This document shows positions 18,474-56,263 of a DNA stretch of 62,999 bases, piece by piece. Below the pieces are notes generated by a model. The model made no database searches and was not told the DNA's origin. It saw only the letters and a program-made list of their open reading frames with translations. Position 1 is the stretch's first letter, and every line of letters starts with the position of its first letter. The stretch is from an uncultured Bacillota bacterium. Its GTDB lineage: Bacteria > Bacillota_I > Bacilli_A > RF39 > UBA660. Location: contig CAMNJS010000001.1 in the NCBI GenBank assembly GCA_946541645.1, forward strand, positions 1-62,999, in the 5' to 3' direction. The position numbers and the translations under genes were made by a program.

Positions 18474-18502
18474 TTGATTTATCAAAAAAAATATGGTATA
18501 TT
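18474..18502 (+). promoter_or_regulatory. Sigma-A type promoter with extended -10
   Basis: TTGATT (18474-18479), 17-nt spacer, TGgTATATT (18494-18502). Confidence 0.6.
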
Positions 18503-18537: not shown

Positions 18538-18969
18538 ATGAAACAAAATCAAAAAGGTTTTACACTTATCGAACTTTTAGCCGTAATTGTTATCTTAGCT
18601 ATTATCGCCTTAATCGCTACTCCAATTGTCATGAATGTTATTAATAAATCTAGACAAAAGGCAGCTGAAGATAGTGCATATGGTGTCATTGAAGCTATAA
18701 AAGCAAAGCATGCCGAAAGAATGCTAGATACATCTAGTGATATTAGTGAAAGTATCGAAGTTACATGGAGTGATGGCGTAGGTACAATTACAAATTCAAC
18801 TGAAACAGTTACTGTTAGTGGAACTAAACCAACTGCCGGAAAAGTTTCAATATCTTCAAATGGTACAGTTAATGTAGAAGGATTAAAGATTAACGGCTAT
18901 ACATGTAATGGTAGTGATACTGTAACATGTTCAAATGCTGCTGATGCCGCTAACAATGGTGGTAATTAA
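18538..18969 (+). CDS. Prepilin-type N-terminal cleavage/methylation domain protein (type IV pilin-like), P1
   Basis: MKQNQKG|FTLIELLAVIVILAIIALIATP class III signal peptide with Glu at +5. C-terminal Cys pair YTCNGSDTVTC. Strong RBS GAGGAGGTGA. Confidence 0.85.
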   Translation: MKQNQKGFTLIELLAVIVILAIIALIATPIVMNVINKSRQKAAEDSAYGVIEAIKAKHAERMLDTSSDISESIEVTWSDGVGTITNSTETVTVSGTKPTAGKVSISSNGTVNVEGLKINGYTCNGSDTVTCSNAADAANNGGN

Positions 18970-19047: not shown

Positions 19048-19473
19048 ATGGAAGATAATTTTAAGGAAATTAAAATGGTTGAAAATGGTTTAGTTATTAT
19101 TTTGCTTTTTGTTATTATAATTATTTTGCTTCCATCTGTTACTGCAGTAATTTCAAAATCCATGCAAATGTCAGCTAAAACAAATACCAAAGGCACAGTA
19201 GAAATTGTAAAAGAATTATATATAAACATAAATTTAACTGATGACGTAATTTTGCCATTTAAAGTAATTTACAATAAAAAAGGATATGAAATATATAGTG
19301 GTGGAGAAAAATATACTCCAGTAAAAACAATTAAGATAAAAAATGAAGGGAAACTTCCCACAAGTGGAAGTGTTGAAATAGATTCAGAAGGCTACACAAC
19401 AGTTAAAAATTTAAAATTTGGTCTATACAAATGTAATCAAATTAAAGATGGAGATATAGTTTGCGAAATATAA
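19048..19473 (+). CDS. Degenerate pilin-like paralog of P1 (P2)
   Basis: Hydrophobic N-terminal helix (ENGLVIILLFVIIIILLP) without the FTLxE motif. The C-terminus GKLPTSGSVEIDSEGYTTVKNLKFGLYKCNQIKDGDIVC aligns with P1 GTKPTAGKVSISSNGTVNVEGLKINGYTCNGSDTVTC. Alternative start at 19075. Confidence 0.5.
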   Translation: MEDNFKEIKMVENGLVIILLFVIIIILLPSVTAVISKSMQMSAKTNTKGTVEIVKELYININLTDDVILPFKVIYNKKGYEIYSGGEKYTPVKTIKIKNEGKLPTSGSVEIDSEGYTTVKNLKFGLYKCNQIKDGDIVCEI

Positions 19474-21327: not shown

Positions 21328-21588
21328 ATGAATGGACCATCAGGAGAAAAAAAACAAGAAAGTATAAGTAGAGCTAAAGCTTATGAAAATGGGAATCTAG
21401 AATTTAAATATCTTCATCCAGTTGACTTACTATACGTAAGAAAAAATGGCAAAAGAATTTTGAAAATTGAAAGAGCAAGACGAATTTTATTTGCCGTTGT
21501 TCTAGCAGGCGCTAGTGATTATGATATTGAAGATAGGACAATTATAGACATATATGAAGAATATAAGAAAAAAGGAAAAACAATATGA
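21328..21588 (+). CDS. Hypothetical 86-aa protein, translationally coupled between lepA and hemW
   Basis: Starts 2 nt after the lepA stop behind GGAGGAAG; its stop overlaps the hemW ATG (ATGA). Confidence 0.5.
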   Translation: MNGPSGEKKQESISRAKAYENGNLEFKYLHPVDLLYVRKNGKRILKIERARRILFAVVLAGASDYDIEDRTIIDIYEEYKKKGKTI

Positions 21589-22664
21589 GTATATATATTC
21601 ATATTCCTTTTTGTACAAGTATATGTACATACTGCGATTTTCCTAAAATATTAAAAAACGAAGAGTTTATAGACAAATATTTACTGGAATTAGAAAAAGA
21701 AATCAAAAAAAACTATAAAAATGAAAAAATAGATACACTCTATATCGGCGGAGGTACTCCTACATCATTAAGCATAAAAAAATTAAATAAACTATTTGAA
21801 ATAGTAAAAACTTTTAATTTAAATAAAAACGCTGAAATAACCATAGAAGCAAACTCCGAAGATCTAACAGATGAAAAATTAAAACTACTAAAAAGACACG
21901 TAAACAGATTAAGCATTGGTATTGAAACATTTAATAAAGAAATATTAAAAAAATTAAATAGAACTATAAATATAGATAATTTAAAAAATGCTTTCAAATA
22001 TTTTGATAACGTTAATCTTGACCTAATGTATGGTTTTGAAAATGAAACTATAGAAGACTTAAAAAAAGATTTAGAAAAATTAGTTAAGCTAAATCCCACT
22101 CATATTTCAACATATAGTCTTATTATCGAACCGAACACAAAATTATACATAAATAACTATTCCAAAATAGATGAAGACCTAGATAGAAAAATGTATGACT
22201 ATATAATTAAATATCTAAAAGAAAATAATTATAAACACTATGAAATAAGCAATTTTTCTAAGCCAAATTACGAATCAAAACATAATTTAGTATACTGGAA
22301 TAACAACCACTATTACGGTTTTGGGTTAGGTGCAGGAGGTTATATTGAAAACACAAGATATGAAAACACAAGAAGCTTAACAGAATATTTAAAAGGAAAT
22401 CACAAATTAAATTATCATAATTTAAATAAAAATGAGATAATTCAAAACGAATTTATGCTAGGATTTAGAAAAATAAAAGGAATAAATAAAGAAAGCTTTA
22501 AACAAAGATACAACATAAACATAGATGACATTAAAGAAATCAAAGAATTATTAAAACAAAACCTTTTAAAAGAAGATAAAAAAAACATATACATCAGCAA
22601 AAAATATCTATATACATCAAACGAAATACTTATTAAATTAATTGATTTCGAAGAAAAGTTATGA
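21585..22664 (+). CDS. hemW: Radical SAM heme chaperone HemW (HemN-like)
   Basis: IHIPFCTSICTYCDF (CxxxCxxC) motif and HemN C-terminal domain. lepA-hemN adjacency as in Bacillus. Confidence 0.85.
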   Translation: MSIYIHIPFCTSICTYCDFPKILKNEEFIDKYLLELEKEIKKNYKNEKIDTLYIGGGTPTSLSIKKLNKLFEIVKTFNLNKNAEITIEANSEDLTDEKLKLLKRHVNRLSIGIETFNKEILKKLNRTINIDNLKNAFKYFDNVNLDLMYGFENETIEDLKKDLEKLVKLNPTHISTYSLIIEPNTKLYINNYSKIDEDLDRKMYDYIIKYLKENNYKHYEISNFSKPNYESKHNLVYWNNNHYYGFGLGAGGYIENTRYENTRSLTEYLKGNHKLNYHNLNKNEIIQNEFMLGFRKIKGINKESFKQRYNINIDDIKEIKELLKQNLLKEDKKNIYISKKYLYTSNEILIKLIDFEEKL

Positions 22665-22686
22665 TATATTTATAATAGGTGATGAT

Positions 22687-24363
22687 ATGAAAAATAAAGG
22701 ATTCACATTAGCAGAAATATTAGGAGTAATAGTAATAATAGGATTGTTACTACTATTAGTCGCACCAAACATAATAAATAGAATAAGTTCAAATAAAGAA
22801 AAGGTAAGTAAAACAACTGAAAAAATAATCTATAATGCCGCAAGCACATATGTCGACGAAAATAGTGAAAAATATAAATTAGGAAAAAGATATTGTGTAG
22901 CTATTAAAGACTTAATAAAAGAAGGTAAACTAGCAAGCCCATTAAAAGATCCAGTAACTGGAGATGATTATGAGCCAAAAACATTACTTGTAACAATTTA
23001 TAATAATGGAACAAAAGAGTATGAATTATATGATAATATTGCGGAGTGTGAAACATATTCAAAACTTCCATTTATTCAAATATATGCAGATAACAGTAAA
23101 TGGGAAAAATCAAAAACAGTAACAATAACATATCCAAAGGTAGGAAATGAAGAGTATCCACTAGTAGGAAAAAACTATGCATATCAAGTGCCAGGAAAAA
23201 CGTTAGTAGAAAAAGAAACTGCCTTTGAAAATAATACACAAACAATTACGGGTGTAATGTCAAATGGAGAAGTAACAGCCAGTATGCTATATGGAAATAA
23301 AATAATAACAGCAACAAAAAAAATAAATAAAATTGATAATACTGCGCCAACATGTGATGGTCAAACTGGTGGAAAAACAACATGCACAAAAGATCAAAAT
23401 GTAACGGTAGGTGCAAAGTGTAAAGATGAGCAAAGCGGCTGCACTCAAGATGAATTTACTGCTGTAATTAGTGGTGAAGGAGATACCCAAAAAAAAGAGA
23501 TAACAATATCAGATAATGCCGGAAACACTAATACATGTAATTATACATATAGCAAAAATATAGACACAACAGCCCCAGACATACCACAAATAACAAATCC
23601 TACAAACGGAAACTGGACAAATAGTAATATTAAGCTAACTTTAAAATCAAAAGATACTGGATGCGCTGGAATAGCAAATTATCAGTATACTTATTCAAAT
23701 AGTGCAACAGAAGTAGGAAACAACCACAATACATATTGGGTGAAATATAGTGGAGATTCAGCAAAAGAAACATTTGTAAGTTCAGACTTTAGTGCAGAAC
23801 GTAATCAATATGTCTATGTAAGAGCTTGTGATAGTTTAGGAAATTGCTCAGGCAAATCACAAACAATGATAAAAATTGATAAAACGAGACCAACATGTAG
23901 TACCTCGAAATCAAGTATTGGTTCAGCAAGCGGTGTAAATGTAGCAATAAGTTGCAAAGATGATAGTCATGCGACGACTAATAGCGGTGTTAAAACATGC
24001 GCAGGCACAAATGGCGCATCATCTAGCAAAACAGGTGTCAAAACTACAACCTCATATACGGTAACAGACAAAGCTGGGAATAGTAATACATGTAGTGCGT
24101 CAGTGACCTACGATAGCTGCTATCATGTAGGTTATACATGCGCTTATGGCTGCGATACATGTGGCGGAGATGCATATTCCTGCCCAGAAACAAAATGTGT
24201 AACCACATCTAGCATGAATACATACTGTCCTAACGGTGGAGTATTTGTTGCCGGTCGAGGATGTTGCTATGAAATACCAAAAACATGCTATCATGACACT
24301 TATAGATGTAACTGCAGTAGTTGTCACCATTATGTTAATACATGCAGTGGAGGTTACAAATAG
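22687..24363 (+). CDS. Large modular prepilin-type protein (P3): pilin module + Ig-like repeats + Cys-rich C-terminal module
   Basis: MKNKG|FTLAEILGVIVIIGLLLLLVAP, then a GspG/ComGC-like LIKEGKLASPLKDPVTGDDY. Repeated ID(N/T/K)T(A/R)P...D.AGN..TC modules follow. 14 Cys in the last 81 residues. ATG at 22687 follows AGGTGA. Confidence 0.8.
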   Translation: MKNKGFTLAEILGVIVIIGLLLLLVAPNIINRISSNKEKVSKTTEKIIYNAASTYVDENSEKYKLGKRYCVAIKDLIKEGKLASPLKDPVTGDDYEPKTLLVTIYNNGTKEYELYDNIAECETYSKLPFIQIYADNSKWEKSKTVTITYPKVGNEEYPLVGKNYAYQVPGKTLVEKETAFENNTQTITGVMSNGEVTASMLYGNKIITATKKINKIDNTAPTCDGQTGGKTTCTKDQNVTVGAKCKDEQSGCTQDEFTAVISGEGDTQKKEITISDNAGNTNTCNYTYSKNIDTTAPDIPQITNPTNGNWTNSNIKLTLKSKDTGCAGIANYQYTYSNSATEVGNNHNTYWVKYSGDSAKETFVSSDFSAERNQYVYVRACDSLGNCSGKSQTMIKIDKTRPTCSTSKSSIGSASGVNVAISCKDDSHATTNSGVKTCAGTNGASSSKTGVKTTTSYTVTDKAGNSNTCSASVTYDSCYHVGYTCAYGCDTCGGDAYSCPETKCVTTSSMNTYCPNGGVFVAGRGCCYEIPKTCYHDTYRCNCSSCHHYVNTCSGGYK

Positions 24364-24385
24364 ATGTCAATTTTGACATCTTTTC
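24363..24385 (+). terminator. Rho-independent terminator
   Basis: GATGTC-aatttt-GACATC followed by TTTTC. Confidence 0.6.
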
Positions 24386-24441
24386 TTATGCTTTAAAAAA
24401 CTATAAATAGATGATATAATGTAATTAAAGTGGTGAATGGC

Positions 24442-47763: not shown

Positions 47764-49425
47764 ATGAAAAAACTAAAATTAAAATATAAAGATAGATACA
47801 TTGAAAACGTTGAATATGAAACGCCACTATATGAGATATTAAAAGAAATAAAAGAAGATTATAAATATTCAGTAGTAGGTGCAAGCCTAGATGGGTATCT
47901 AGTAGATTTAAATACCAAAATAACTGAAAATGAAAAAGTAGAGTTTTATGATACATCTTCAGTTATTGGAAATAGAATATATGCCCGAAGTTTAGAATTT
48001 TTAATAACAGTAGCCTGCAAAAAAGTTTTAGATAATGATTCTGAAGTTTTAATAAATTACTCCTTAGAAAATGGTGTATGTATTGAAATAACTGGCAAAA
48101 AAATCAGCACCATAACGATAAAAAAAATAGAAGAAAAAATGAACGAATTAGTAAATAGTGAACTACCAATTAACTATATAATTGTAGATAGATTAGATGC
48201 CATTAAATATTTTAAAAGAAATAACCAAATGGATAAAGTAAATTCCTTAAAATATATGACCAGCAAAACAATTACCTTATATACATTAGATGACGTTTAT
48301 GATTATTTTTATTGGCCACTTGTCTATAATACTAAGTTATTAAACAAATTTGCCATTAGTAACCTAAAAGATAATAAATTTATTTTAAGTTATCCTACTA
48401 GTGCAAACCCAAACAAAGTAAAAGAATATATAAAACACGACCTTACTGCAAAAACATATGAAGATTTTCAAAATTGGGGTAGACTTATAAATATTAAAAC
48501 AGCCTCAGACCTCAATAGACTCTGCGCGCTAGGACAAGATGTTGAAACCGTAAAACTATTTGAAACTCATTATGAAGATCAATTATCAAAAATCGCCGAG
48601 GAAATATCCAAAAGAAAAGATAAAATAAAAATAATTTTACTAGCAGGACCTTCATCAAGCGGTAAAACGACAACTGCCAAAAAACTAGAGTTATATTTAA
48701 AAGTAAAAGGAATGCACACGAAAAAGATTTCTCTTGATAACTATTTTGTAGATAGAATATATGCCCCAAAAGATGATGAAGGAAATTTAGATTATTCAGA
48801 CATTAAATCTCTAGATGTAACCTTATTTCAAAAGCAACTATCTAGAATGTTAAAAGGAAATAAAGTATTAATGCCAACTTATGATTTTGTAAACGGCAAA
48901 AAATATTATAAAGATAACTACATAAAATTAGCAGAAGATGACATTATAATTGTTGAAGGCATTCATACCCTAAACGAAAAGCTCACAAGCATCATACCTA
49001 GAGAAAATAAATATAAAATATTTATAAGCCCACTAGTCAGCTTAAAATTAGATAATCATAATAGAATACATTCAACAGATGTCAGAAAAATAAGAAGAAT
49101 TGTAAGAGATAATCTGTTTAGAGGAACCAGTGCTGAAGAAACACTTGCCATGTGGCCAAACGTCGATAAAGAAGCCATAAAAAATATATATCCATACCAA
49201 GACGATGCCGATTCTATATTAAACTCATCGTTAGGTTACGAACTAAACGTGCTTAGAATATATGCCGAACCATTATTATACGGAATTGAAAGTACAAGTA
49301 AAGAATATGTAGAGGCTGTAAGACTTTTAAATTTATTACACAATTTTTTAACGATTACCAGTGAAGTAGTACCAAAAGATTCAATTTTAAGAGAATTTAT
49401 TGGTGGAAGTAGTTTTAAAGATTAG
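47764..49425 (+). CDS. Nucleoside/uridine kinase family protein with N-terminal TGS-like domain
   Basis: P-loop LLAGPSSSGKTTTAKKL in a PRK/uridine-kinase-like C-terminal half, 553 aa. Confidence 0.6.
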   Translation: MKKLKLKYKDRYIENVEYETPLYEILKEIKEDYKYSVVGASLDGYLVDLNTKITENEKVEFYDTSSVIGNRIYARSLEFLITVACKKVLDNDSEVLINYSLENGVCIEITGKKISTITIKKIEEKMNELVNSELPINYIIVDRLDAIKYFKRNNQMDKVNSLKYMTSKTITLYTLDDVYDYFYWPLVYNTKLLNKFAISNLKDNKFILSYPTSANPNKVKEYIKHDLTAKTYEDFQNWGRLINIKTASDLNRLCALGQDVETVKLFETHYEDQLSKIAEEISKRKDKIKIILLAGPSSSGKTTTAKKLELYLKVKGMHTKKISLDNYFVDRIYAPKDDEGNLDYSDIKSLDVTLFQKQLSRMLKGNKVLMPTYDFVNGKKYYKDNYIKLAEDDIIIVEGIHTLNEKLTSIIPRENKYKIFISPLVSLKLDNHNRIHSTDVRKIRRIVRDNLFRGTSAEETLAMWPNVDKEAIKNIYPYQDDADSILNSSLGYELNVLRIYAEPLLYGIESTSKEYVEAVRLLNLLHNFLTITSEVVPKDSILREFIGGSSFKD

Positions 49426-49438
49426 GAAGGATGATAAA

Positions 49439-50458
49439 ATGATTAAAGTAGCAATTAATGGTTTTGGTAGAATAGGAAGGCTAGTATTTAGAATAATGGA
49501 AGAAGATTCTGATTTTGACGTTATAGCCATAAACGACTTAACGGATCCTGAACAGCTCGCATACCTATTAAAATATGATACATCCCATAGAAGATACTTA
49601 GAAAATGAAATAACTTACGATGATGAAAATTTAATTGTCAAAGGTCGAAAAATTAAAGTTTACAAAGAAATGGATCCAAATAACCTTCCATGGAAAGAAC
49701 TAGATATAGATGCTGTCTATGAATGTACAGGTAAATTTACAGAAAAAGAAAAAGCTCAAGCCCATATAAATGCCGGAGCCAAAAAAGTTATTATTTCAGC
49801 CCCAGCCAAAGGAGACTTAAAAACCATAGTTTATGGTGTTAACGAGGACATACTAGACGCAAATGATACCATTATAAGTGCCGCTTCATGTACAACAAAC
49901 TGCCTAGCTCCAGTAGTTAATATACTAAATAAAGAATTTGGTATAAATAAAGGCTACATGACCACTGTTCACGCCTATACAAACGATCAGTCAATACTAG
50001 ATTTATCACATAAAAAAGGCGCAAAATCAAGAAGAGGAAGAGCTGCTGCAGCTAATATAATTCCATCATCAACAGGGGCCGCAAGTGCTCTAGGAAAAGT
50101 AATACCAGATTTAGGCGGAAAACTAGACGGTAGCGCTTTAAGAGTGCCTGTAACCACAGGCTCAGTTGTAGACTTAACACTAGAACTAGCGAGAAAAGTT
50201 ACAAAAGAAGAAATAAACGAAGCGTTCAAAAAAAATGTAAGTGACACCTTAGAATATACTATAGATCCAATAGTTTCAAGCGACGTTATAGGAAATACCC
50301 ATGGAGCTATAATCGATAGCTTACTTACTGACATATTAGAAACAGAAAACGGAGATTTAGTCAAAGTAGTAGCTTGGTATGACAACGAAATGGGCTATAG
50401 CGCTCAAATGGTAAGAACTGTCAAACATTTATGTCAAAAAACAAGAATTGATAATTAA
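49439..50458 (+). CDS. gap: Glyceraldehyde-3-phosphate dehydrogenase
   Basis: MIKVAINGFGRIGR, SCTTNCLAP and WYDNEMGYS motifs. ATG at 49439 follows AGGAAGG. Confidence 0.96.
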   Translation: MIKVAINGFGRIGRLVFRIMEEDSDFDVIAINDLTDPEQLAYLLKYDTSHRRYLENEITYDDENLIVKGRKIKVYKEMDPNNLPWKELDIDAVYECTGKFTEKEKAQAHINAGAKKVIISAPAKGDLKTIVYGVNEDILDANDTIISAASCTTNCLAPVVNILNKEFGINKGYMTTVHAYTNDQSILDLSHKKGAKSRRGRAAAANIIPSSTGAASALGKVIPDLGGKLDGSALRVPVTTGSVVDLTLELARKVTKEEINEAFKKNVSDTLEYTIDPIVSSDVIGNTHGAIIDSLLTDILETENGDLVKVVAWYDNEMGYSAQMVRTVKHLCQKTRIDN

Positions 50459-50486
50459 ATTTTATAATAAAAAAATAAATATATTT

Positions 50487-50514
50487 AACTTTAGAATTCT
50501 TCTAAAGTTTTTTA
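50487..50514 (+). terminator. Rho-independent terminator after gap
   Basis: AACTTTAGA-attct-TCTAAAGTT followed by TTTTT. Confidence 0.75.
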
Positions 50515-50595
50515 ATATATTACCAGCCCTTTTAAATTTAAAATACCTTGTTATTATAAAAAAAATGTTATAAAATAATATTAGGTGATTATAAT

Positions 50596-50937
50596 ATGAA
50601 AAATGGATTCACACTCGTTGAATTACTTGCTGTCCTAGTTGTCCTAGGCGTAATTACACTAGTATCTGTCCCAAGTATTATTACTACTAATAAAAAATCA
50701 ATTGAAAATGACTATAATGAATTTAAAAGAACAGTTGAAAATGCAGCTGAGATCTATATTGAAACTCACCCAGATAAAAAGCCATCAAACCAAACTCAAG
50801 TTTCTGTATCAATGTTAAAACATAGTGGCTACTTAGAAACTGGGCTAGTAAATCCTAAAAATGGCGAAATTAGTGAAAACGCATACGTCCTTGTAAGCAA
50901 AACCGGAAACAGTTATACATATGAATATAAGGAGTGA
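50596..50937 (+). CDS. Prepilin-type pseudopilin-like protein (P4), first gene of the pgk operon
   Basis: MKNG|FTLVELLAVLVVLGVITLVSVP and the GspG/ComGC-like MLKHSGYLETGLVNPKNGE. Upstream TGtTATAAA (50566-50574). The stop is 4 nt before the pgk ATG. Confidence 0.85.
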   Translation: MKNGFTLVELLAVLVVLGVITLVSVPSIITTNKKSIENDYNEFKRTVENAAEIYIETHPDKKPSNQTQVSVSMLKHSGYLETGLVNPKNGEISENAYVLVSKTGNSYTYEYKE

Positions 50938-50941
50938 TAAT

Positions 50942-52126
50942 ATGAAAAAAACAATCAAAGATTATGACTTAAAAGGTAAAAAAGTAATTATAAGATGTGA
51001 CTTCAACGTTCCAATAGAAGGCGGAGTAATAAAAGATGATAACCGAATTAGACAAAGCTTAAAGACTATTAGATATGCAAGAAAAATGGGCGCAAAAGTC
51101 ATTTTACTTTCACATTTGGGAAGAGTAAAAACCGAAGAAGATAAAGAAAAATATACCTTAAGACCAGTAGCTGAAGCATTATCAAAACTCTTAAGAAAGA
51201 AAGTTATATTTATAAATAAAACAAGAGGAAAAGAAGTAGAAGAAACCATAAAAAACATGAAGGAAAAAGATGTTATCCTACTAGAAAACACTAGATTTGA
51301 AGACTTAGAAAAGCAAAAAGAAAGTAAGAATGATAAAAGACTAGGAAAATACTGGGCTAGTTTAGGTGATATTTATATTAATGATGCCTTTGGAACTATT
51401 CATAGATCACACGCCTCAAATTTAGGAATAGCAAAACATCTAAAAAGTGGCGTTGGATTTCTTGTGGAAAAAGAAATAAAAGAACTTGAAAAACTTACTA
51501 AAAACCCTAAAAAACCATATACAATTATTCTAGGTGGTTCAAAAGTAAGTGACAAAATAAATTTGCTTAAAAATTTAAGTAAAAAAGCTGATTATATTTT
51601 AATAGGAGGCGGCATGGCCTTTACATTTTTAAATGCTGCTGGCTTCAATATAGGATCATCACTATGTGAAAAAGAAGAAATTCCATTTTGCAAGCAACTA
51701 TTAGAAGACTATCCAGACAAAATCATTTTACCAATTGATATAATTACAGCTAAAGAAATAAAACAAAATGTTAAAACTAAAAATCGCTTTGTAAACGAAA
51801 TAGAAGAAGATGAGATAGGGTTAGACATTGGTAAGAAAACTCTAGAAGTATTCAAACAATATATTGACGACAGTAAAACCATCTTTTGGAATGGGCCTAT
51901 GGGATACTTTGAAATAAAAGATTTCTCTAAAGGGACAAAAGGGTTATGTGAAGTTATAGCAAATTCAAAGGCTTATAAAATAATAGGTGGCGGTGACACC
52001 GCAAGAGCTGTAACTGAAATGGGATATGAAAAGAAAGTAAACCATATATCAACTGGCGGAGGAGCAAGCCTTACATTTCTGGAAGGAGTAAAGCTCAAAG
52101 CTTTAGATAGTATTAATGAAAAATAA
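50942..52126 (+). CDS. pgk: Phosphoglycerate kinase
   Basis: VIIRCDFNVP, SHLGR and GGGDTA motifs. ATG at 50942 follows AAGGAG. Confidence 0.95.
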   Translation: MKKTIKDYDLKGKKVIIRCDFNVPIEGGVIKDDNRIRQSLKTIRYARKMGAKVILLSHLGRVKTEEDKEKYTLRPVAEALSKLLRKKVIFINKTRGKEVEETIKNMKEKDVILLENTRFEDLEKQKESKNDKRLGKYWASLGDIYINDAFGTIHRSHASNLGIAKHLKSGVGFLVEKEIKELEKLTKNPKKPYTIILGGSKVSDKINLLKNLSKKADYILIGGGMAFTFLNAAGFNIGSSLCEKEEIPFCKQLLEDYPDKIILPIDIITAKEIKQNVKTKNRFVNEIEEDEIGLDIGKKTLEVFKQYIDDSKTIFWNGPMGYFEIKDFSKGTKGLCEVIANSKAYKIIGGGDTARAVTEMGYEKKVNHISTGGGASLTFLEGVKLKALDSINEK

Positions 52127-53117
52127 CAAAAGAAATTACATAATTATACTTCTTTTAACTGCCATAATCTTATATTTAGTTTTTAAAGATAATTTCACAG
52201 AAAAAATAAAATACTTATTTTCATTTGATATAAAATGGTTACTATTTGCTTTTATTCTAATGATTTCGTATTGGGTTTTAAAAGGCATAGTTTTATACTA
52301 TTGTGTAAAAAAAATTGATAAAACATACACTAGAAAAAAAGGAATTAATTTAATGCTAACAACCCAATTTTTTCACGCTATAACCCCATTTTCAACCGGT
52401 GGACAGCCCTGGCAAATATACAAGTTAAAAAAAGAAGGACTTACACTAGGAGAAAGTACAACTATAATAGTAGAAGACTTTATCGTATACCAAATTGCCC
52501 TAGTGTCTTTAGGACTAATTGCCGTTGTTGTAAATAACACATTTAATATACTATCAAAAGACAGTTTTTTAAAATATCTAGTTACGATCGGCTTTATAAT
52601 AAATGCTTTAATAATAGTACTTTTATTTTTAGTCGCCTTTAATAAAAAATGGAACAAAAAGATAATAAATGGAACAATAAATTTTGGAGCCAAAATTAAG
52701 GTCATAAAAGATAAAGAAAGCCTATTAAAAAAGGCAGAAAATTTTATAAATAATTTTCACAAAAGTGCAGATATACTATTCAAGCACAAATTAAATTTTA
52801 TAAAAATTATACTGCTAAATTTTTTTGCTCTTTCACTACTATACTTAATTCCTTATGCCCTTATGCGAGGATTAAACATAAATGCAAATCCATTTATTGT
52901 CGTAATAACATCAGCATATGTTATGTTGATAGGTGGAGTAGTTCCAGTTCCAGGCGCAGCGGGAGGCCTTGAATATAGTTTTATGTCATTTTTTAAAAAT
53001 TTCATCAAAGGCCCAAAACTATCCATTATAATGATTGTTTGGAGAATAATAACTTACTATTTTGGACTTATAATTGGATTATTCATTTTAAGCTTTTGCG
53101 AGGAGGATAATAAATGA
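52116..53117 (+). CDS. UPF0104 / MprF-like flippase-domain membrane protein
   Basis: About 8 TM helices with TPFSTGGQPWQIY and VPVPGAAGGLE motifs. Overlaps the pgk stop by 11 nt. Confidence 0.7.
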   Translation: MKNNKRNYIIILLLTAIILYLVFKDNFTEKIKYLFSFDIKWLLFAFILMISYWVLKGIVLYYCVKKIDKTYTRKKGINLMLTTQFFHAITPFSTGGQPWQIYKLKKEGLTLGESTTIIVEDFIVYQIALVSLGLIAVVVNNTFNILSKDSFLKYLVTIGFIINALIIVLLFLVAFNKKWNKKIINGTINFGAKIKVIKDKESLLKKAENFINNFHKSADILFKHKLNFIKIILLNFFALSLLYLIPYALMRGLNINANPFIVVITSAYVMLIGGVVPVPGAAGGLEYSFMSFFKNFIKGPKLSIIMIVWRIITYYFGLIIGLFILSFCEEDNK

Positions 53118-54346
53118 GAATAGGAATTTTTACTGAGACATATACTCCTTATATCAGTGGACTAGTAACCAGTGAACTCATGCTAAAAAAAGCTCTAGAA
53201 AAAAAAGGACACGAAGTTTATGTCGTTACAGCCAACTTAGATAGTTTTGAATATGAATATGATGAAAAAGAAAAGGTACTTAGAATTCCAGGAATTCCAA
53301 CTGGAATATATAACGCGAGACTAACCAGTATTTATCCAATTCAATCATTAAATAAAATAAAAAGCTGGCATCTTGACATTATTCACTCACAAACAGAGTT
53401 TGGAATCGGTTCATTTGCCAGATTATTTGCTAAACAATATAACATTCCCATAGTGCATACATATCACACTATGTATGAAGATTATGTACACTATATAACC
53501 AAAGGCCACTTCAATCGATCAAGTAAAAAAATAGTTGAATATTTAACAAAATTTTATTGCGATAAAACCATAAGTGAACTAATTGTACCCACAAAAAAAG
53601 CATATGACCTGTTCAAAGAAAAATACAATGTTAAAAGAAACATTCACATAATTCCAACCGGAATTGAAGTTGATAGATTTTACAGAGAAAATCAAGACAT
53701 CAAGAAAATCCAAGAATTAAAAAAGAAATACAACATAAAAAAAACAGACTTTACCTTGATTTTTGTAGGCAGAATAGCTGAAGAAAAAAATATACCATTT
53801 ATAATTGACGTAGTTTCAAATATAGCTGAAAAAAATAAAAATTTAAAATTATTAATAATTGGAGATGGTCCTGATAAAGCAAAATACGAAACATACGTTA
53901 AAGAAAAAAAAGCCGAAAAAAACATACTATTTACTGGAAAAGTATCGTGGGAAGATATTCCGGCCTACTACGCAATAGGAAATGTCTTTATTTCGGCCTC
54001 AACCACAGAAACCCAAGGTCTCACAATTATTGAAGCCATGGCCTCATCACTTCCAGCCTTATGCATTGATGATGAAAGTTTTAATGGAACTGTTATTGAT
54101 GATCTAAATGGCTACCTATTTAAAGATAAAGCAGAATGCGAAAAGACAATATTAAGAATTATAAATAAGCAAAAAGATTTAGAAAGGTTAAGTAAAGGCG
54201 CTAGAAACAGTGCTGACAAACATTCATCAAAATATTTTGCTGAAAGAGTATTAGACGTGTATAGAATAGCTATAAAAAATAAAAAACCAAGTTATAAAGA
54301 AAAAATAAGTAAATTCTTTAAAAAGGTGATACCATGGAAAAAATGA
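53114..54346 (+). CDS. GT4 glycosyltransferase, diacylglycerol glucosyltransferase (alMGS)-like
   Basis: MRIGIFTETYTPYISGLVTS N-terminus and the E..G....EAMA motif (TETQGLTIIEAMAS). ATGA overlap with the upstream gene. Confidence 0.75.
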   Translation: MRIGIFTETYTPYISGLVTSELMLKKALEKKGHEVYVVTANLDSFEYEYDEKEKVLRIPGIPTGIYNARLTSIYPIQSLNKIKSWHLDIIHSQTEFGIGSFARLFAKQYNIPIVHTYHTMYEDYVHYITKGHFNRSSKKIVEYLTKFYCDKTISELIVPTKKAYDLFKEKYNVKRNIHIIPTGIEVDRFYRENQDIKKIQELKKKYNIKKTDFTLIFVGRIAEEKNIPFIIDVVSNIAEKNKNLKLLIIGDGPDKAKYETYVKEKKAEKNILFTGKVSWEDIPAYYAIGNVFISASTTETQGLTIIEAMASSLPALCIDDESFNGTVIDDLNGYLFKDKAECEKTILRIINKQKDLERLSKGARNSADKHSSKYFAERVLDVYRIAIKNKKPSYKEKISKFFKKVIPWKK

Positions 54347-55014
54347 TATTTGTAAATCAAAAAATGTATTTAGATAGTATAAGTGACATAAAAAAGTTTC
54401 AAAACGAAACAATTGATTATAAAGATAAATTTATTATCTTTCCGTCTGATATATACCTAAGTGATTATATAAGCAAAGGATTTACTGTTGGTAGTCAAAA
54501 CATATCACCAGAAGATAGTGGGGCCCATACTGGGCAAATATCTGGAAAGGCCTTAAAAGATTTAGATGTTAGTTATGTAATGATTGGCCACTATGAAGTT
54601 TGTAAACATTATAAGGAAAAATGTGTCAGGATTCAAGAAAGAATAAATCAAGCGATAAAAAACAATCTAAAAGTAGTTTTATGTGTTGGTGAGAATATTG
54701 AAGAAAAAACAAACGGCCAAACAAAAGAAACAATAAAAAGAAAACTAGAAAATTTAGATTTAAATGAAAATATAATTATTTCCTATGAACCAGTATGGTC
54801 CATAGGTACAGATCTTACCCCAACAAATGAAGAAATAGAAGATATTGTAAATTACATAAAAACATTTAAAAACGTAAAAGTCCTATATGGTGGAAGCGTT
54901 GGCCCAAACAATATTGATATATTAAATAAAATCCCAAATTTAAATGGATTTTTACTAGGTAGTCACGCCTTACAAAGTAGTAATTTAAAAAAAATAATAG
55001 AAGTTGTACAATAA
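54334..55014 (+). CDS. tpiA: Triose-phosphate isomerase, short and divergent
   Basis: Asn/Lys (VNQKMY), His (IGHYE) and Glu (YEPVWSIGT) catalytic positions are present, plus YGGSV. Several phosphate-loop positions deviate from consensus. Overlaps the GT4 stop. Confidence 0.7.
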   Translation: MEKMIFVNQKMYLDSISDIKKFQNETIDYKDKFIIFPSDIYLSDYISKGFTVGSQNISPEDSGAHTGQISGKALKDLDVSYVMIGHYEVCKHYKEKCVRIQERINQAIKNNLKVVLCVGENIEEKTNGQTKETIKRKLENLDLNENIIISYEPVWSIGTDLTPTNEEIEDIVNYIKTFKNVKVLYGGSVGPNNIDILNKIPNLNGFLLGSHALQSSNLKKIIEVVQ

Positions 55015-55921: not shown

Positions 55922-56263
55922 ATGATGAAAAATAAAGGATTTACTCTAATGGAACTTTTAGGAAGCATTACTATACTAGCCTTAATTGCTCTAATAGTTT
56001 TTCCAGCCATATTAAATATGCTAGGTGATTCACAAAGTAAAATAGATAAAGCAAAGCAAGACTATGTAATAAGCGCAGCTAGAGAATATGTAAAAGATAA
56101 TGATTTAGAAGTTAATACAACCATTAGCATTGACGTAGATATATTAATTAAAAAAAATTATTTAAAAGAAAACATGATTGATGAAGAAATGACAAACGAT
56201 AGCGTTACATGTACTAAAATTGATGGTACTATAACTTATAAGTATAATGAAGAAAGTGATTAA
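55922..56263 (+). CDS. Prepilin-type pseudopilin-like protein (P5)
   Basis: MMKNKG|FTLMELLGSITILALIALIVFP and AAREYV...LIKKNYL. Upstream TGtTAAAAT (55900-55908). Confidence 0.85.
   Translation: MMKNKGFTLMELLGSITILALIALIVFPAILNMLGDSQSKIDKAKQDYVISAAREYVKDNDLEVNTTISIDVDILIKKNYLKENMIDEEMTNDSVTCTKIDGTITYKYNEESD

What the first reader, a model, noticed from the sequence alone, without database searches (positions are those of the whole stretch)
22687..24363. 558-aa modular pilin: class III signal peptide + GspG/ComGC-like head + four Ig-like/Cys-framed modules + 14-Cys terminal knot
Seen: residues 1-30 are a canonical prepilin N-terminus, and residues about 45-120 carry the pseudopilin-like AASTYV...LIKEGKLASPLKDPVTGDDY. 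Four modules follow, each delimited by ID(N/T/K)T(A/R)P. Two of them (about 217-292 and 400-476) are clear repeats: PTC...V.V/A..CKD(E/D)...C...(I/Y)T(I/V)(S/T)D.AGN(T/S)NTC..(Y/V)TY. The other two look like the common bacterial Ig-like surface module (D.TAP...W.N..I.L...D...G...Y.Y......W..Y......DS.GN). The last 81 residues (nt 24115-24363) contain 14 Cys plus several His/Tyr (CYHVGYTCAYGCDTCGGDAYSCPETKC...GCCYEIPKTCYHDTYRCNCSSCHHYVNTC). By my count the protein has 28 Cys. Established: modular pilins, where a pilin module is fused to an adhesive or functional domain, are known in Gram-positive type IV pili. I do not recognise this Cys-rich cap. Inference: a pilus-displayed adhesin, or a metal- or disulfide-stabilised tip module. 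The gene sits 22 nt after hemW with no terminator, so it may be co-transcribed with lepA-hemW.
Basis: partly seen in the sequence, partly recalled or inferred. Interest (0 to 1): 0.78.

Follow-up and report, generated by a model that had tools for sequence, protein, structure and literature searches.

The report
Modular type IV pilin with cysteine-rich cap
This gene encodes a long pilus-subunit-like surface protein (pilin base, four antibody-like domains, a previously undescribed cysteine-rich end cap) from an uncultured low-GC gut bacterium; it belongs to a very large, unannotated family that probably serves as a swappable set of adhesins.

Summary
The ORF at 22687-24363 (+) is intact and encodes 558 aa with a prepilin N-terminus (MKNKG|FTLAE; E5, G14, P22), a small pilin head, four beta-sandwich modules and an 82-aa tail holding 14 of the 28 Cys.

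AlphaFold models residues 1-478 well: a 50-residue helix, the head, then four modules. Foldseek matches the model to tandem Ig/FnIII arrays. The tail stays unmodelled and matches nothing in Pfam, NCBIfam, PDB sequences or Foldseek.

It is not an orphan. 3,773 cluster representatives match at E<=1e-3, nearly all from uncultured low-GC gut 'Bacilli/Tenericutes' genomes. They share the head and first module, and the distal modules and caps are shuffled: ricin lectin, choline-binding, ChW, TSP1-like or Cys-rich.

The tail has conserved N- and C-terminal Cys frames around a variable 38-79 aa core. The same m3-m4-tail cassette also ends a non-pilin exoprotein.

A syntenic relative lacks a gene at this site and carries modular pilins elsewhere. 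The gene is therefore an accessory insertion, with its own promoter-like site and a terminator-like hairpin.

Best reading: a minor modular type IV pilin adhesin. This is a new variant of a known kind, of moderate interest. Pilus assembly, ligand and Cys chemistry remain untested.

The parts
22642..22670 (+). Promoter-like site (TTGATT, 17 nt, TATATT, with TG) inside the 3' end of hemW. Its -10 element ends 16 nt before the ATG.
   Evidence: The same hexamers, spacing and TG lie upstream of the small pilin gene at 18474-18502. Across the loci, prepilin genes carry a -35/-10 pair just upstream of the RBS more often than control ORFs (31% vs 15%, p 0.002). This is a consensus match only, in an AT-rich genome.
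22677..22682 (+). Ribosome-binding site AGGTGA, 4 nt before the ATG.
   Evidence: Sequence read directly. The same TAGGTGAT context precedes the other prepilin genes.
22687..22701 (+). Class III (prepilin) leader peptide MKNKG, with predicted cleavage after Gly5.
   Evidence: TIGR02532 scores 17.4 bits (cut-off 16.3). Pfam N_methyl scores 21.1 bits (cut-off 21.2). F6, T7, L8 and E10 are invariant in 52 relatives.
22702..22860 (+). Alpha1 helix of the mature pilin (aa 6-58), carrying F1, E5, G14 and P22 in mature numbering.
   Evidence: AF2 models a helix at 8-58. The residues were read directly. PDB sequence matches to PilA, GspG, MshA and geopilin cover this part only.
22861..23061 (+). Globular pilin head (aa 59-125) with Cys70 and Cys121. 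Contains LIKEGKLASPLKDPVTGDDY.
   Evidence: AF2 pLDDT is about 90-96, showing a beta-sheet plus short helices. 118 of 120 homologues match the head at BLASTP E<=1e-3; the best matches are about 55% identical. The head-only pilins of the window at 50596 and 55922 are paralogues.
23062..23334 (+). Module m1 (aa 126-216), a beta-sandwich next to the head and part of the conserved base of the family.
   Evidence: AF2 strands with pLDDT mostly 82-94 and one 10-residue block at 63. Invariant or near-invariant columns W139, I147, P150 and G154 in alignment A2. Many hits align over residues 1-155 to 1-250.
23335..23562 (+). Module m2 (aa 217-292), a Cys-framed Ig-like module (PTC...CKD...C...AGNTNTC) and a repeat of m4.
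   Evidence: m2 vs m4: 29% identity, E 3e-10, z 7.5. 64 of 120 homologues carry copies, often several.
23563..23877 (+). Module m3 (aa 293-397), an Ig-like module of the Big_13 / OmpL47-type kind.
   Evidence: 89 of 120 homologues carry it, up to 63% identity. In relatives it matches Big_13 and NF047446 (OmpL47-type) near their thresholds. In this protein NF047446 gives only E 0.026.
23878..24114 (+). Module m4 (aa 398-476), a HYR-like, Cys-framed Ig-like module.
   Evidence: Pfam HYR scores 20.9 bits against a cut-off of 21.7, at aa 427-475. AF2 pLDDT is about 75-91. 85 of 120 homologues carry it.
24109..24168 (+). Tail N-frame (aa 475-494, YDSCYHVGYTCAYGCDTCGG). It has 4 Cys, including the unit SC-x6-C-x-YG-C and a CxxC.
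   Evidence: Conserved in P0143, P0174, L082, L083, L084, P0039 and P0069. The unit occurs 47 times in 23 of 341 proteins and 0 times in shuffles.
24169..24282 (+). Variable tail core (aa 495-532) with 5 Cys, including GRGCC. It is shared with P0002.
   Evidence: In relatives the core is 38-79 aa long with 5-11 Cys. It is the only part of the tail with pLDDT 63-80, modelled as a beta-hairpin, in the tail-only model. P0002 shares it.
24283..24360 (+). Tail C-frame (aa 533-558, TCYHDTYRCNCSSCHHYVNTCSGGYK). It has 5 Cys and forms the protein's C-terminus.
   Evidence: Conserved to the last residues in P0143, P0174, L082 and L083. In L084 the first Cys of the N-frame and the last Cys of the C-frame are both missing.
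24362..24391 (+). Terminator-like hairpin (8-bp stem, 4-nt loop) followed by TTTCTTATGC, overlapping the stop codon.
18538..18969 (+). 143-aa canonical prepilin gene between valS and lepA. It is conserved at this site in a relative.
   Evidence: N_methyl E 3e-10. The orthologue in L086 is 43% identical and syntenic.
19048..19473 (+). 141-aa partner ORF with a degenerate pilin-like N-terminus and no Glu5.
   Evidence: 30% identity to the 143-aa pilin, E 1.5e-8. Conserved in L086 at 46% identity.
50596..50937 (+). 113-aa head-only pilin between gap and pgk, a paralogue of the modular pilin's head.
   Evidence: N_methyl. 32% identity over aa 1-101 of the head, E 1.6e-5.
55922..56263 (+). 113-aa head-only pilin between spo0A and dus.
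   Evidence: N_methyl. 44% identity over the first 59 aa of the head, E 3e-8.

Best explanation
The gene encodes a minor, modular type IV pilin of an uncultured low-GC, spore-forming gut Firmicute.

Proposed mechanism:
1. A prepilin peptidase removes the 5-residue leader (MKNKG). This step is inferred.
2. The alpha1 helix and the small conserved head insert the protein into a type IV filament, at or near its tip. This step is inferred.
3. Four rigid Ig-like beta-sandwich modules act as a stalk.
4. The stalk holds an 82-aa Cys-rich cap away from the filament.
5. In the cap, conserved N- and C-terminal Cys frames clasp together and present a variable Cys-containing core. The core is the likely ligand-binding surface.

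The gene is one member of a large paralogous repertoire. All members share the pilin base, meaning the head plus the first module, and carry shuffled distal modules and caps. The genes are gained and lost at different intergenic sites of a conserved housekeeping backbone, and each probably has its own promoter.

Shown here: the sequence architecture, the predicted folds of residues 1-478, the size and modularity of the family, the accessory status of the gene, and the anatomy of the cap. Inferred: processing, filament incorporation, adhesion, and the clasp topology.
For: Pilin hallmarks. The protein has G-1, F1, E5, G14 and P22, matches TIGR02532 above its cut-off, and is modelled with a helix at 8-58 and a head at pLDDT above 90.

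Stalk. Foldseek matches the model to tandem Ig/FnIII arrays such as NCAM2, titin and SiiE, at E 1e-8 to 1e-5.

Family. 3,773 cluster representatives match at E<=1e-3 and 126 at 1e-30. 118 of 120 top homologues match the head; the best matches are about 55% identical. The distal modules vary in type and number.

Binding modules in relatives. Downstream of the same head they carry ricin lectin, choline-binding repeats, ChW, TSP1 and Flg_new.

Link to assembly genes. In L043 a pilin with this head and the start of m1 lies directly after a T2SSF platform gene and an A24 prepilin peptidase.

Possible filament partners. Head-only 113-aa paralogues lie in the same window.

Accessory status. L086 (LepA 81% identical) has the same gene order but no pilin after hemW. 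It carries modular pilins between rpmF and ftsW, where the window has none. L085 has them after efp.

Cap anatomy. The frames are conserved and the core is variable in 8 tails. The first and last Cys are lost together in L084.

Native gene. Its GC3 is 18.8%, like its neighbours.
Against: No pilus assembly ATPase, platform protein or prepilin peptidase lies in the 63-kb window. Motif scans for the ATPase and the peptidase found a hit within 6 kb of the pilin in only one of the 81 related loci then held (L043). Whether this genome makes pili is therefore unknown.

Glu5 is present, which does not point specifically to a tip position.

AlphaFold gives no confident model of the cap: pLDDT is below 50 in the full-length model and averages 56 in the tail-only model. 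The clasp-and-knob picture rests on conservation patterns and one natural variant.

The same m3-m4-tail cassette ends a Sec-exported non-pilin protein, P0174. The cap is therefore not pilus-specific.

No ligand is known. No experimental data exist for any family member found here; literature searches found none.
Confidence: 0.6

Rival explanations
1. Surface display without a pilus. In this lineage the class III signal peptide and pilin base serve as a general export and anchoring device. The protein stays anchored in the membrane by alpha1N, or sits in a short pseudopilus or bindosome-like assembly. Stalk and cap reach through the wall as a cell-surface adhesin or binding protein.
For: Prepilin genes are unusually many and dispersed among housekeeping genes: 4 in this 63-kb window, 4-5 in 22.7 kb of L085, and 101 in 948 kb of related loci. 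They are rarely next to assembly genes. The same distal cassette is used on a Sec-exported protein. A precedent from my own knowledge: the Sulfolobus sugar-binding proteins with class III signal peptides.
Against: The base keeps the features needed for packing into a filament: E5, G14, P22 and a conserved head. Head-only pilins that could form the filament body are present. One family member is linked to pilC-pilD.
Confidence: 0.22
2. The cap is a metal-binding module rather than a disulfide knot. Cys4 or Cys/His sites, for example Zn held by the two conserved CxxC pairs at 489-492 and 543-546, would tie the N- and C-frames together in the anoxic gut. The cap would then need no oxidative folding machinery.
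For: The CxxC pairs are conserved in all eight frames examined. The tail of this protein has 4 His. Two related tails have odd Cys counts of 17, so not every Cys can be in a disulfide. Firmicutes tend to exclude Cys from exported proteins (PMC2823432). No Dsb-like gene lies in the window.
Against: The Ig-like modules also carry conserved Cys positions (PTC/CKD/NTC), as do both ends of the head (C70, C121). This suggests the organism does form extracytoplasmic disulfides. Other caps of the family lack CxxC and have only C-x6/7-C units. The core has the C...C...CC...C...C spacing typical of small disulfide-rich domains (sequence read directly).
Confidence: 0.3
3. It is a minor pilin of a competence (Com) pseudopilus used for DNA uptake.
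For: The best NCBIfam match is ComGC (E 1.4e-9, aa 4-83), with weaker matches to ComGE, ComGD and ComGF.
Against: All scores are far below the cut-offs (38 vs 75 bits). The gene is not in a comG-like operon. A 430-aa Ig stalk with a Cys cap, and relatives carrying lectin domains, have no counterpart in Com pilins. The one linked assembly cluster is pilC-pilD-pilin, not the comGA-GB-GC order (operon order from my own knowledge).
Confidence: 0.05
4. The ORF is an artefact: a fusion made by a sequencing frameshift or by misassembly.
For: None found.
Against: A separate contig matches the window from m3 through the tail into the downstream gene, with one synonymous difference. Several homologues share the same junctions. 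The reading frame, RBS and terminator are all intact.
Confidence: 0.01

Closest known systems
Streptococcus sanguinis modular minor pilins PilB (vWA module) and PilC (lectin module); 'modular pilins' as defined by Raynaud et al. 2021 (PMC8179133; also PMC9934059)
   Same: The host has a Gram-positive-type cell wall. The protein has a class III signal peptide with Glu5. A small pilin module is followed by modules that are not specific to pilus biology. The proposed role is adhesion, presented by the filament.
   Different: This protein has four Ig-like modules plus an undescribed Cys-rich cap, not a single vWA or lectin module. The gene is not in a pil locus but inserted between housekeeping genes. 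It belongs to a large paralogous repertoire. Nothing about it has been tested experimentally.
CofB (ETEC) and TcpB (Vibrio cholerae) type IVb minor pilins (CofB as summarised in PMC8179133; TcpB from my own knowledge)
   Same: A pilin module carries C-terminal beta-rich domains (a beta-repeat and a beta-sandwich) joined by a linker, and is thought to sit at the pilus tip.
   Different: They belong to type IVb systems of two-membrane bacteria, form trimers, are encoded within the pilus operon, and have no Cys-rich cap. No sequence similarity was found here.
GspG (type II secretion major pseudopilin) and ComGC (competence pilin)
   Same: The N-terminal 55-80 residues align. A motif resembling L..GYL...P.DPWG..Y is present as LIKEGKLASPLKDPVTGDDY; this comparison is from memory, not a test.
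   Different: Scores are far below the equivalog cut-offs. The globular head gives no PDB sequence match. GspG and ComGC carry no C-terminal modules.
Tandem Ig-like surface adhesins: Salmonella SiiE (BIg domains), Leptospira OmpL47-type domains, HYR and Big_13 families
   Same: Foldseek matches modules m1-m4 to such arrays. The modules or their relatives come close to the HYR, Big_13 and OmpL47-type thresholds.
   Different: Those proteins are exported and anchored by other routes, such as type I secretion or lipoprotein anchors, not through a pilin base.
Small disulfide-rich binding domains: TSP1 repeats, knottin or hevein-like domains, and the stalk-and-knob of bovine ultralong CDR H3 (analogy only)
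   Same: Each is a short Cys-dense module. Here the frame is conserved and the core variable. Some family members end in a true TSP1-like repeat instead (P0037: TSP_1 28.6 bits against a cut-off of 21.6).
   Different: The tail of this protein matches none of them by sequence profile or by fold search. The resemblance is one of design, not shown homology.

Membership tests
Type IV pilin (class III signal peptide protein) | Short basic leader ending in Gly, then Phe1 and about 20 hydrophobic residues with Glu5 | tested here: met
   MKNKG|FTLAEILGVIVIIGLLLLLVAP. TIGR02532 scores 17.4 bits (cut-off 16.3). Pfam N_methyl scores 21.1 bits (cut-off 21.2).
Type IV pilin (class III signal peptide protein) | Long N-terminal alpha1 helix packed against a beta-sheet head | tested here: met
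   AF2 models a helix at 8-58 and strands at 67-72, 99-104 and 110-115, with head pLDDT about 90-96. The head could not be fold-searched on its own.
Type IV pilin (class III signal peptide protein) | Matching prepilin peptidase, assembly ATPase and platform protein in the same genome | not testable with these tools
   None lies in the 63-kb window. A relative (L043) has T2SSF and peptidase A24 directly upstream of a pilin of this family. No ATPase was seen in any locus.
Type IV pilin (class III signal peptide protein) | Incorporation into a filament | not testable with these tools
   This needs an experiment.
Modular pilin (as defined by Raynaud et al. 2021, PMC8179133) | An N-terminal pilin module plus at least one further module that is not specific to type IV pilus biology | tested here: met
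   Foldseek finds four Ig/FnIII-like modules. HYR is close to its threshold. Relatives carry Big_13, ricin, ChW, choline-binding and TSP1 modules.
GspG (TIGR01710) / ComGC (NF040999) equivalogs | Whole-protein score above the curated cut-off | tested here: not met
   GspG scores 35.2 bits against a cut-off of 88.85. ComGC scores 38 bits against 75. The matches cover aa 4-58 and 4-83 only.
HYR domain (PF02494), for m4 and m2 | Score above the Pfam gathering threshold | tested here: inconclusive
   20.9 bits against a cut-off of 21.7, at aa 427-475. m2 is related to m4.
OmpL47-type domain (NF047446) / Big_13, for m3 | Score above the curated cut-off | tested here: inconclusive
   This protein scores 15 bits against a cut-off of 40. 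m3-type modules in relatives score 35-39 bits. P0003 matches Big_13 at 35.1 bits, above the cut-off of 27.
Any described Cys-rich domain family (Pfam, NCBIfam, PDB), for the tail | A significant sequence-profile or fold match over aa 477-558 | tested here: not met
   Pfam and NCBIfam gave no tail match for this protein at E<=1, nor for tail-bearing relatives scanned at E<=0.1 and E<=0.05. The PDB profile search found 0 hits at E<=10. Foldseek on the low-confidence tail model found 0 hits.

The most novel reading that the evidence does not exclude
These reduced-genome gut Firmicutes may have turned the type IV pilin base into a combinatorial display platform. In this reading a genome holds dozens of dispersed modular pilin genes, each with its own promoter. 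The Cys-framed cap would be a new 'clasp and variable knob' binding domain, unusual for Firmicutes, which normally avoid Cys in exported proteins.
Probability: 0.3. Interest if true: 0.7.

Novelty: new variant of a known kind. Interest (0 to 1): 0.5.

Why it matters
Modular pilins are a recognised way for type IV pili to gain new functions, but only a few have been studied, and those carry single, recognisable modules.

This gene gives access to a very large family that current databases label only by the 25-residue N-terminal motif. The family lives in abundant but uncultured gut bacteria. It looks like an exchangeable adhesin repertoire built on one pilin base. Among its caps is a Cys-rich domain with a conserved frame and a variable core that no database describes.

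If the proteins are shown to sit on pili, they would be obvious candidates for how these small-genome bacteria attach to host mucus, dietary particles or other microbes. The cap could also be a compact binding scaffold. The high Cys content of an exported Firmicute protein further raises a testable question about oxidative folding or metal use outside the cell in strict anaerobes.

Tried and rejected
Searches that found little or nothing:
- The tail alone in the word-indexed protein database gave no candidates. A 9-sequence tail profile found only the protein's own fragment and P0242.
- The 9-sequence tail alignment was too diverse for the metagenome scan. A 3-sequence alignment worked and gave 3 loci.
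- AlphaFold on the tail with 9 aligned sequences gave mean pLDDT 56. Foldseek with that model gave nothing.
- A PDB profile search with the tail gave nothing.
- PDB sequence searches with the globular head alone and with the family profile matched only alpha1N. The GspG/ComGC-like head could therefore not be confirmed.
- The exact protein is not on record in the contig index.
- A tblastn search of m3-m4-tail against phage genomes found no match.
- There are no silent partial copies of the gene elsewhere in the window.

Ideas considered and set aside:
- A first promoter test using an extended -10 element was not significant once restricted to ORFs with an RBS. A second test using a -35/-10 pair next to the RBS gave 31% vs 15%, p 0.002, which is moderate evidence only.
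- The TANB77 pilin paper (PMC11680825) concerns Tad-type pili of a Clostridia order and is not this family.
- A frameshift fusion was rejected.
- Recent foreign origin was rejected on GC3.
Full report
**Observation.**
The ORF at 22687-24363 (+) is real and intact. It encodes 558 aa with 28 Cys, and 14 of these lie in the last 81 residues. The ATG at 22687 follows an AGGTGA site by 4 nt and gives the leader MKNKG|FTLAE, as in homologues. An upstream in-frame TTG at 22642 overlaps hemW and is not needed.

Two corrections apply:
- ID.T.P occurs three times, at aa 216, 292 and 397, not four.
- Only m2 and m4 are demonstrable repeats: 29% identity, E 3e-10, z 7.5 against shuffles. m1 and m3 show no similarity to each other.

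The protein is a clear Cys outlier, at 5.0% against 0.77% for 42 other proteins of the window. The other exported proteins there have 0.3-0.7%.

The ORF is not a frameshift fusion. A separate low-coverage metagenome contig (L087) matches the window from about nt 23545 through the tail and into the downstream gene, with one synonymous difference. Several homologues share the same module-to-tail junction.

**Anatomy.**
*Pilin base.* Pfam and NCBIfam recognise only the N-terminus. TIGR02532 is above its cut-off. Pfam N_methyl is 0.1 bit below its cut-off. ComGC and GspG score 38 and 35 bits against cut-offs of 75 and 89. In mature numbering the protein has F1, E5, G14 and P22. To my knowledge these are the usual hallmarks of filament-forming type IVa-like pilins.

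*Predicted fold.* AlphaFold2 with 52 aligned relatives gave mean pLDDT 75.5. It shows a helix at 8-58, a small head at pLDDT about 90-96, and four beta-sandwich modules at about 126-216, 217-292, 293-397 and 398-476. The tail at 479-558 is unmodelled, with pLDDT below 50.

*Fold and sequence matches.* Foldseek against the PDB returns tandem Ig/FnIII arrays such as NCAM2, titin and the Salmonella adhesin SiiE, at E 1e-8 to 1e-5. PDB sequence searches match only alpha1N of PilA, GspG, MshA and geopilin. The globular head alone matches nothing. 'GspG/ComGC-like head' is therefore a resemblance and not a membership.

*Module types.* m4 is just below the HYR threshold, at 20.9 against 21.7 bits. 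m3-type modules in relatives approach the OmpL47-type and Big_13 thresholds.

**A very large, unannotated family.**
An exhaustive search found 3,773 cluster representatives at E<=1e-3, 949 at 1e-10 and 126 at 1e-30.

Among the 120 best word-indexed hits, 118 match the head at BLASTP E<=1e-3, and the best matches are about 55% identical. m2-, m3- and m4-type modules occur in 64, 89 and 85 proteins, often in several copies and in different orders. The alignment shows that the head plus m1 form the conserved base.

Downstream of the same base, relatives carry known binding modules:
- a ricin B lectin (P0107);
- choline-binding repeats (P0069);
- ChW (P0016);
- a TSP1 repeat (P0037);
- Flg_new, Big_13 and DUF7743.

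Genome hits come almost entirely from uncultured low-GC 'Bacilli', 'Tenericutes' or Candidatus Coprosoma MAGs from guts. Two are closed chromosomes of about 1.5 Mb. Several loci come from the same genome. The window itself is 29% GC and encodes Spo0A, GPR, SpoIIP, PBPs and FtsW. The host is therefore a walled, probably spore-forming Firmicute.

**The tail.**
No Pfam, NCBIfam, PDB-sequence or Foldseek match was found for the tail of this protein or of its relatives.

Close tail homologues are:
- P0143, a 1,062-aa pilin;
- P0174, 1,832 aa;
- three metagenome loci, L082, L083 and L084, all at 28-30% GC.

More distant relatives are P0039, P0069, P0023, P0144 and the P0066 group.

Aligning eight tails shows three parts:
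- a conserved N-frame of about 22 aa with the pattern Y.SC-x6-C.YGC.TCGG;
- a core that varies from 38 to 79 aa and holds 5-11 Cys;
- a conserved C-frame of about 26 aa, TC.....C.C..C-x6-C..GY(K/Y), which ends the protein.

Both frames contain the unit SC-x6-C-x-[YG]G-[CYF]. It occurs 47 times in 23 of 341 collected proteins and never in shuffled copies.

In L084 the first Cys of the N-frame and the last Cys of the C-frame are both absent. From this I infer, on a single variant, that the two frames pair antiparallel and clasp the base of the core.

The core of this protein (aa 495-532) is shared with P0002. It is the only part of the tail with moderate confidence (pLDDT 63-80), modelled as a beta-hairpin.

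The tail starts immediately after the last strand of m4 (VTY|DSC), with no linker.

P0174 has a Sec-type signal peptide, a metallo-beta-lactamase-like region and beta-helix-like repeats. It ends with the same m3-m4-tail cassette, 45% identical over aa 248-558. The cassette is therefore a general extracellular module and not a pilin-specific one.

**Genomic context.**
*No assembly genes nearby.* The window holds no pilus assembly genes. Motif scans for the ATPase and the peptidase across the 81 related loci then held found only one hit within 6 kb of the pilin. That locus, L043, has a T2SSF platform gene and an A24 prepilin peptidase directly upstream of a pilin that carries this family's head and the start of m1. 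It is the only genetic link to type IV machinery that I could find.

*Other prepilin genes in the window.* There are three more canonical prepilin genes:
- a 143-aa pilin with a degenerate 141-aa partner, between valS and lepA;
- a 113-aa head-only paralogue between gap and pgk;
- a second 113-aa head-only paralogue between spo0A and dus.

*Synteny.* Synteny is informative. L086 (LepA 81%, FtsW 79%, GH31 75% identical) has this gene order: valS, small pilin, partner ORF, lepA, a small ORF, hemW, HD-like gene, thyA, tmk, GDPD, then further backbone genes, rpmF, ftsW, pyk and GH31.
- In L086, hemW is followed directly by the HD-like gene.
- L086 carries modular pilins of 538 and 830 aa between rpmF and ftsW. 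The window has only 309 nt of non-coding DNA there.
- L088 repeats the rpmF site.
- L085 has two modular pilins after efp.

The modular pilin genes are thus accessory insertions in a conserved backbone.

*Native gene.* The GC3 of this gene (18.8%) equals that of its neighbours, so it is native to the lineage.

*Transcription signals.* A promoter-like TTGATT-17-TATATT (TG) lies at 22642-22670. An identical arrangement precedes the 143-aa pilin gene. A terminator-like hairpin overlaps the stop codon. Across all loci, prepilin genes carry a -35/-10 pair next to the RBS twice as often as control ORFs (31% vs 15%, p 0.002). Co-transcription with lepA-hemW is possible but is not the simplest reading.

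**Mechanism.**
The best-supported explanation is a minor modular type IV pilin, with confidence about 0.6. In this reading the pilin base is processed and built into a filament, and the four Ig-like modules form a stalk. The Cys-framed cap presents a variable core for ligand binding.

What is shown: the architecture, the predicted folds of residues 1-478, the structure of the family, the accessory status of the gene, and the anatomy of the cap. What is inferred: processing, filament incorporation, adhesion and the clasp.

Rivals:
- Display on the cell surface without a pilus (about 0.22). The number and dispersal of prepilin genes favours this: 4 in 63 kb here and 101 in 948 kb of loci.
- A metal-stabilised rather than disulfide-stabilised cap (about 0.3, and independent of the first question). 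The conserved CxxC pairs, the odd Cys counts in two tails, and the tendency of Firmicutes to exclude Cys from exported proteins (PMC2823432) favour this.
- A competence pilin (0.05).
- An artefact (0.01).

**Comparison with known systems.**
The closest known kind is the modular pilin described for S. sanguinis PilB and PilC. That work also surveyed more than 1,200 modular pilins with 264 architectures in InterPro, and noted that many more would be missed because their modules lack signatures (PMC8179133). This protein fits that definition.

It differs in four ways:
- It has a four-module Ig stalk.
- Its cap is undescribed.
- Its gene is placed outside any pil locus.
- It belongs to a large shuffled repertoire.

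Literature searches found no description of this family or of the cap. The TANB77 pilin paper concerns Tad-type pili.

**Verdict.**
The finding is a new variant of a known kind, of moderate interest (0.5). The most interesting open possibility is that this lineage uses the pilin base as a combinatorial display platform, with a new clasp-and-knob Cys domain among its caps.

Noticed in passing
window 18538-18969, 19048-19473, 50596-50937, 55922-56263: Three further canonical prepilin genes, plus one degenerate partner ORF, are scattered among housekeeping genes. One splits gap from pgk and one sits between spo0A and dus. The two 113-aa proteins are head-only paralogues of the modular pilin's head. 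This density (4 in 63 kb) is unusual for a Firmicute.
   Followed up: partly
L087:1-45 versus window 23500-23545: The separate 958-bp contig matches the window from the m2/m3 boundary onwards. Its first 32 nt differ, are AT-rich, carry in-frame stops, and do not occur anywhere in the window. This is either a chimeric contig end at about 2x coverage or a strain with a different or truncated upstream part, with the break at a module boundary.
   Followed up: partly
P0174 (1832 aa): A Sec-exported giant protein has a metallo-beta-lactamase-like region, beta-helix-like repeats and Ig modules. It ends in the same m3-m4-tail cassette (45% identity over aa 248-558). The cassette therefore moves between pilin and non-pilin carriers.
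   Followed up: partly
P0020, P0027, P0035, P0052, P0080, P0085, P0106, P0037: Many relatives end in a different Cys-rich cap, CCGY..WS.W..W...C....C.SESR..YY. It resembles a thrombospondin type 1 repeat. P0037 passes the Pfam TSP_1 threshold (28.6 vs 21.6 bits). I have not seen TSP1-like repeats on bacterial pilins described.
   Followed up: partly
L086:11634-12353, L088:4129-4887, L089:7613-8326: Several modular pilin genes in relatives are followed by a gene for a 237-252-aa protein with no Pfam match. The L086 one has an N-terminal membrane anchor. The window's pilin has no such companion.
   Followed up: no
L043:3365-6465: Downstream of dnaG-sigA lie a T2SSF platform gene with a 230-aa N-terminal extension, then an A24 prepilin peptidase, then a modular pilin of this family. 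The 26% GC contig is labelled Sphaerochaetaceae and is probably mis-binned. No assembly ATPase is adjacent.
   Followed up: partly
window 49400-55014: The glycolytic cluster gap-pgk-tpi is interrupted twice. A pilin gene lies between gap and pgk. An MprF-like membrane protein gene and a GT4 glycosyltransferase gene lie between pgk and tpi.
   Followed up: no
window 47764-49425: A 553-aa protein has a uridine kinase/PRK domain only in its C-terminal half (aa 290-487). Its N-terminal half is unassigned. In the mechanical ORF list it overlaps the TTG-extended gap ORF by 26 nt.
   Followed up: no
window 21328-21588; L086:3717-4010: A small ORF (86 aa here, 97 aa in L086) is conserved in position between lepA and hemW. 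It has no family assignment.
   Followed up: no
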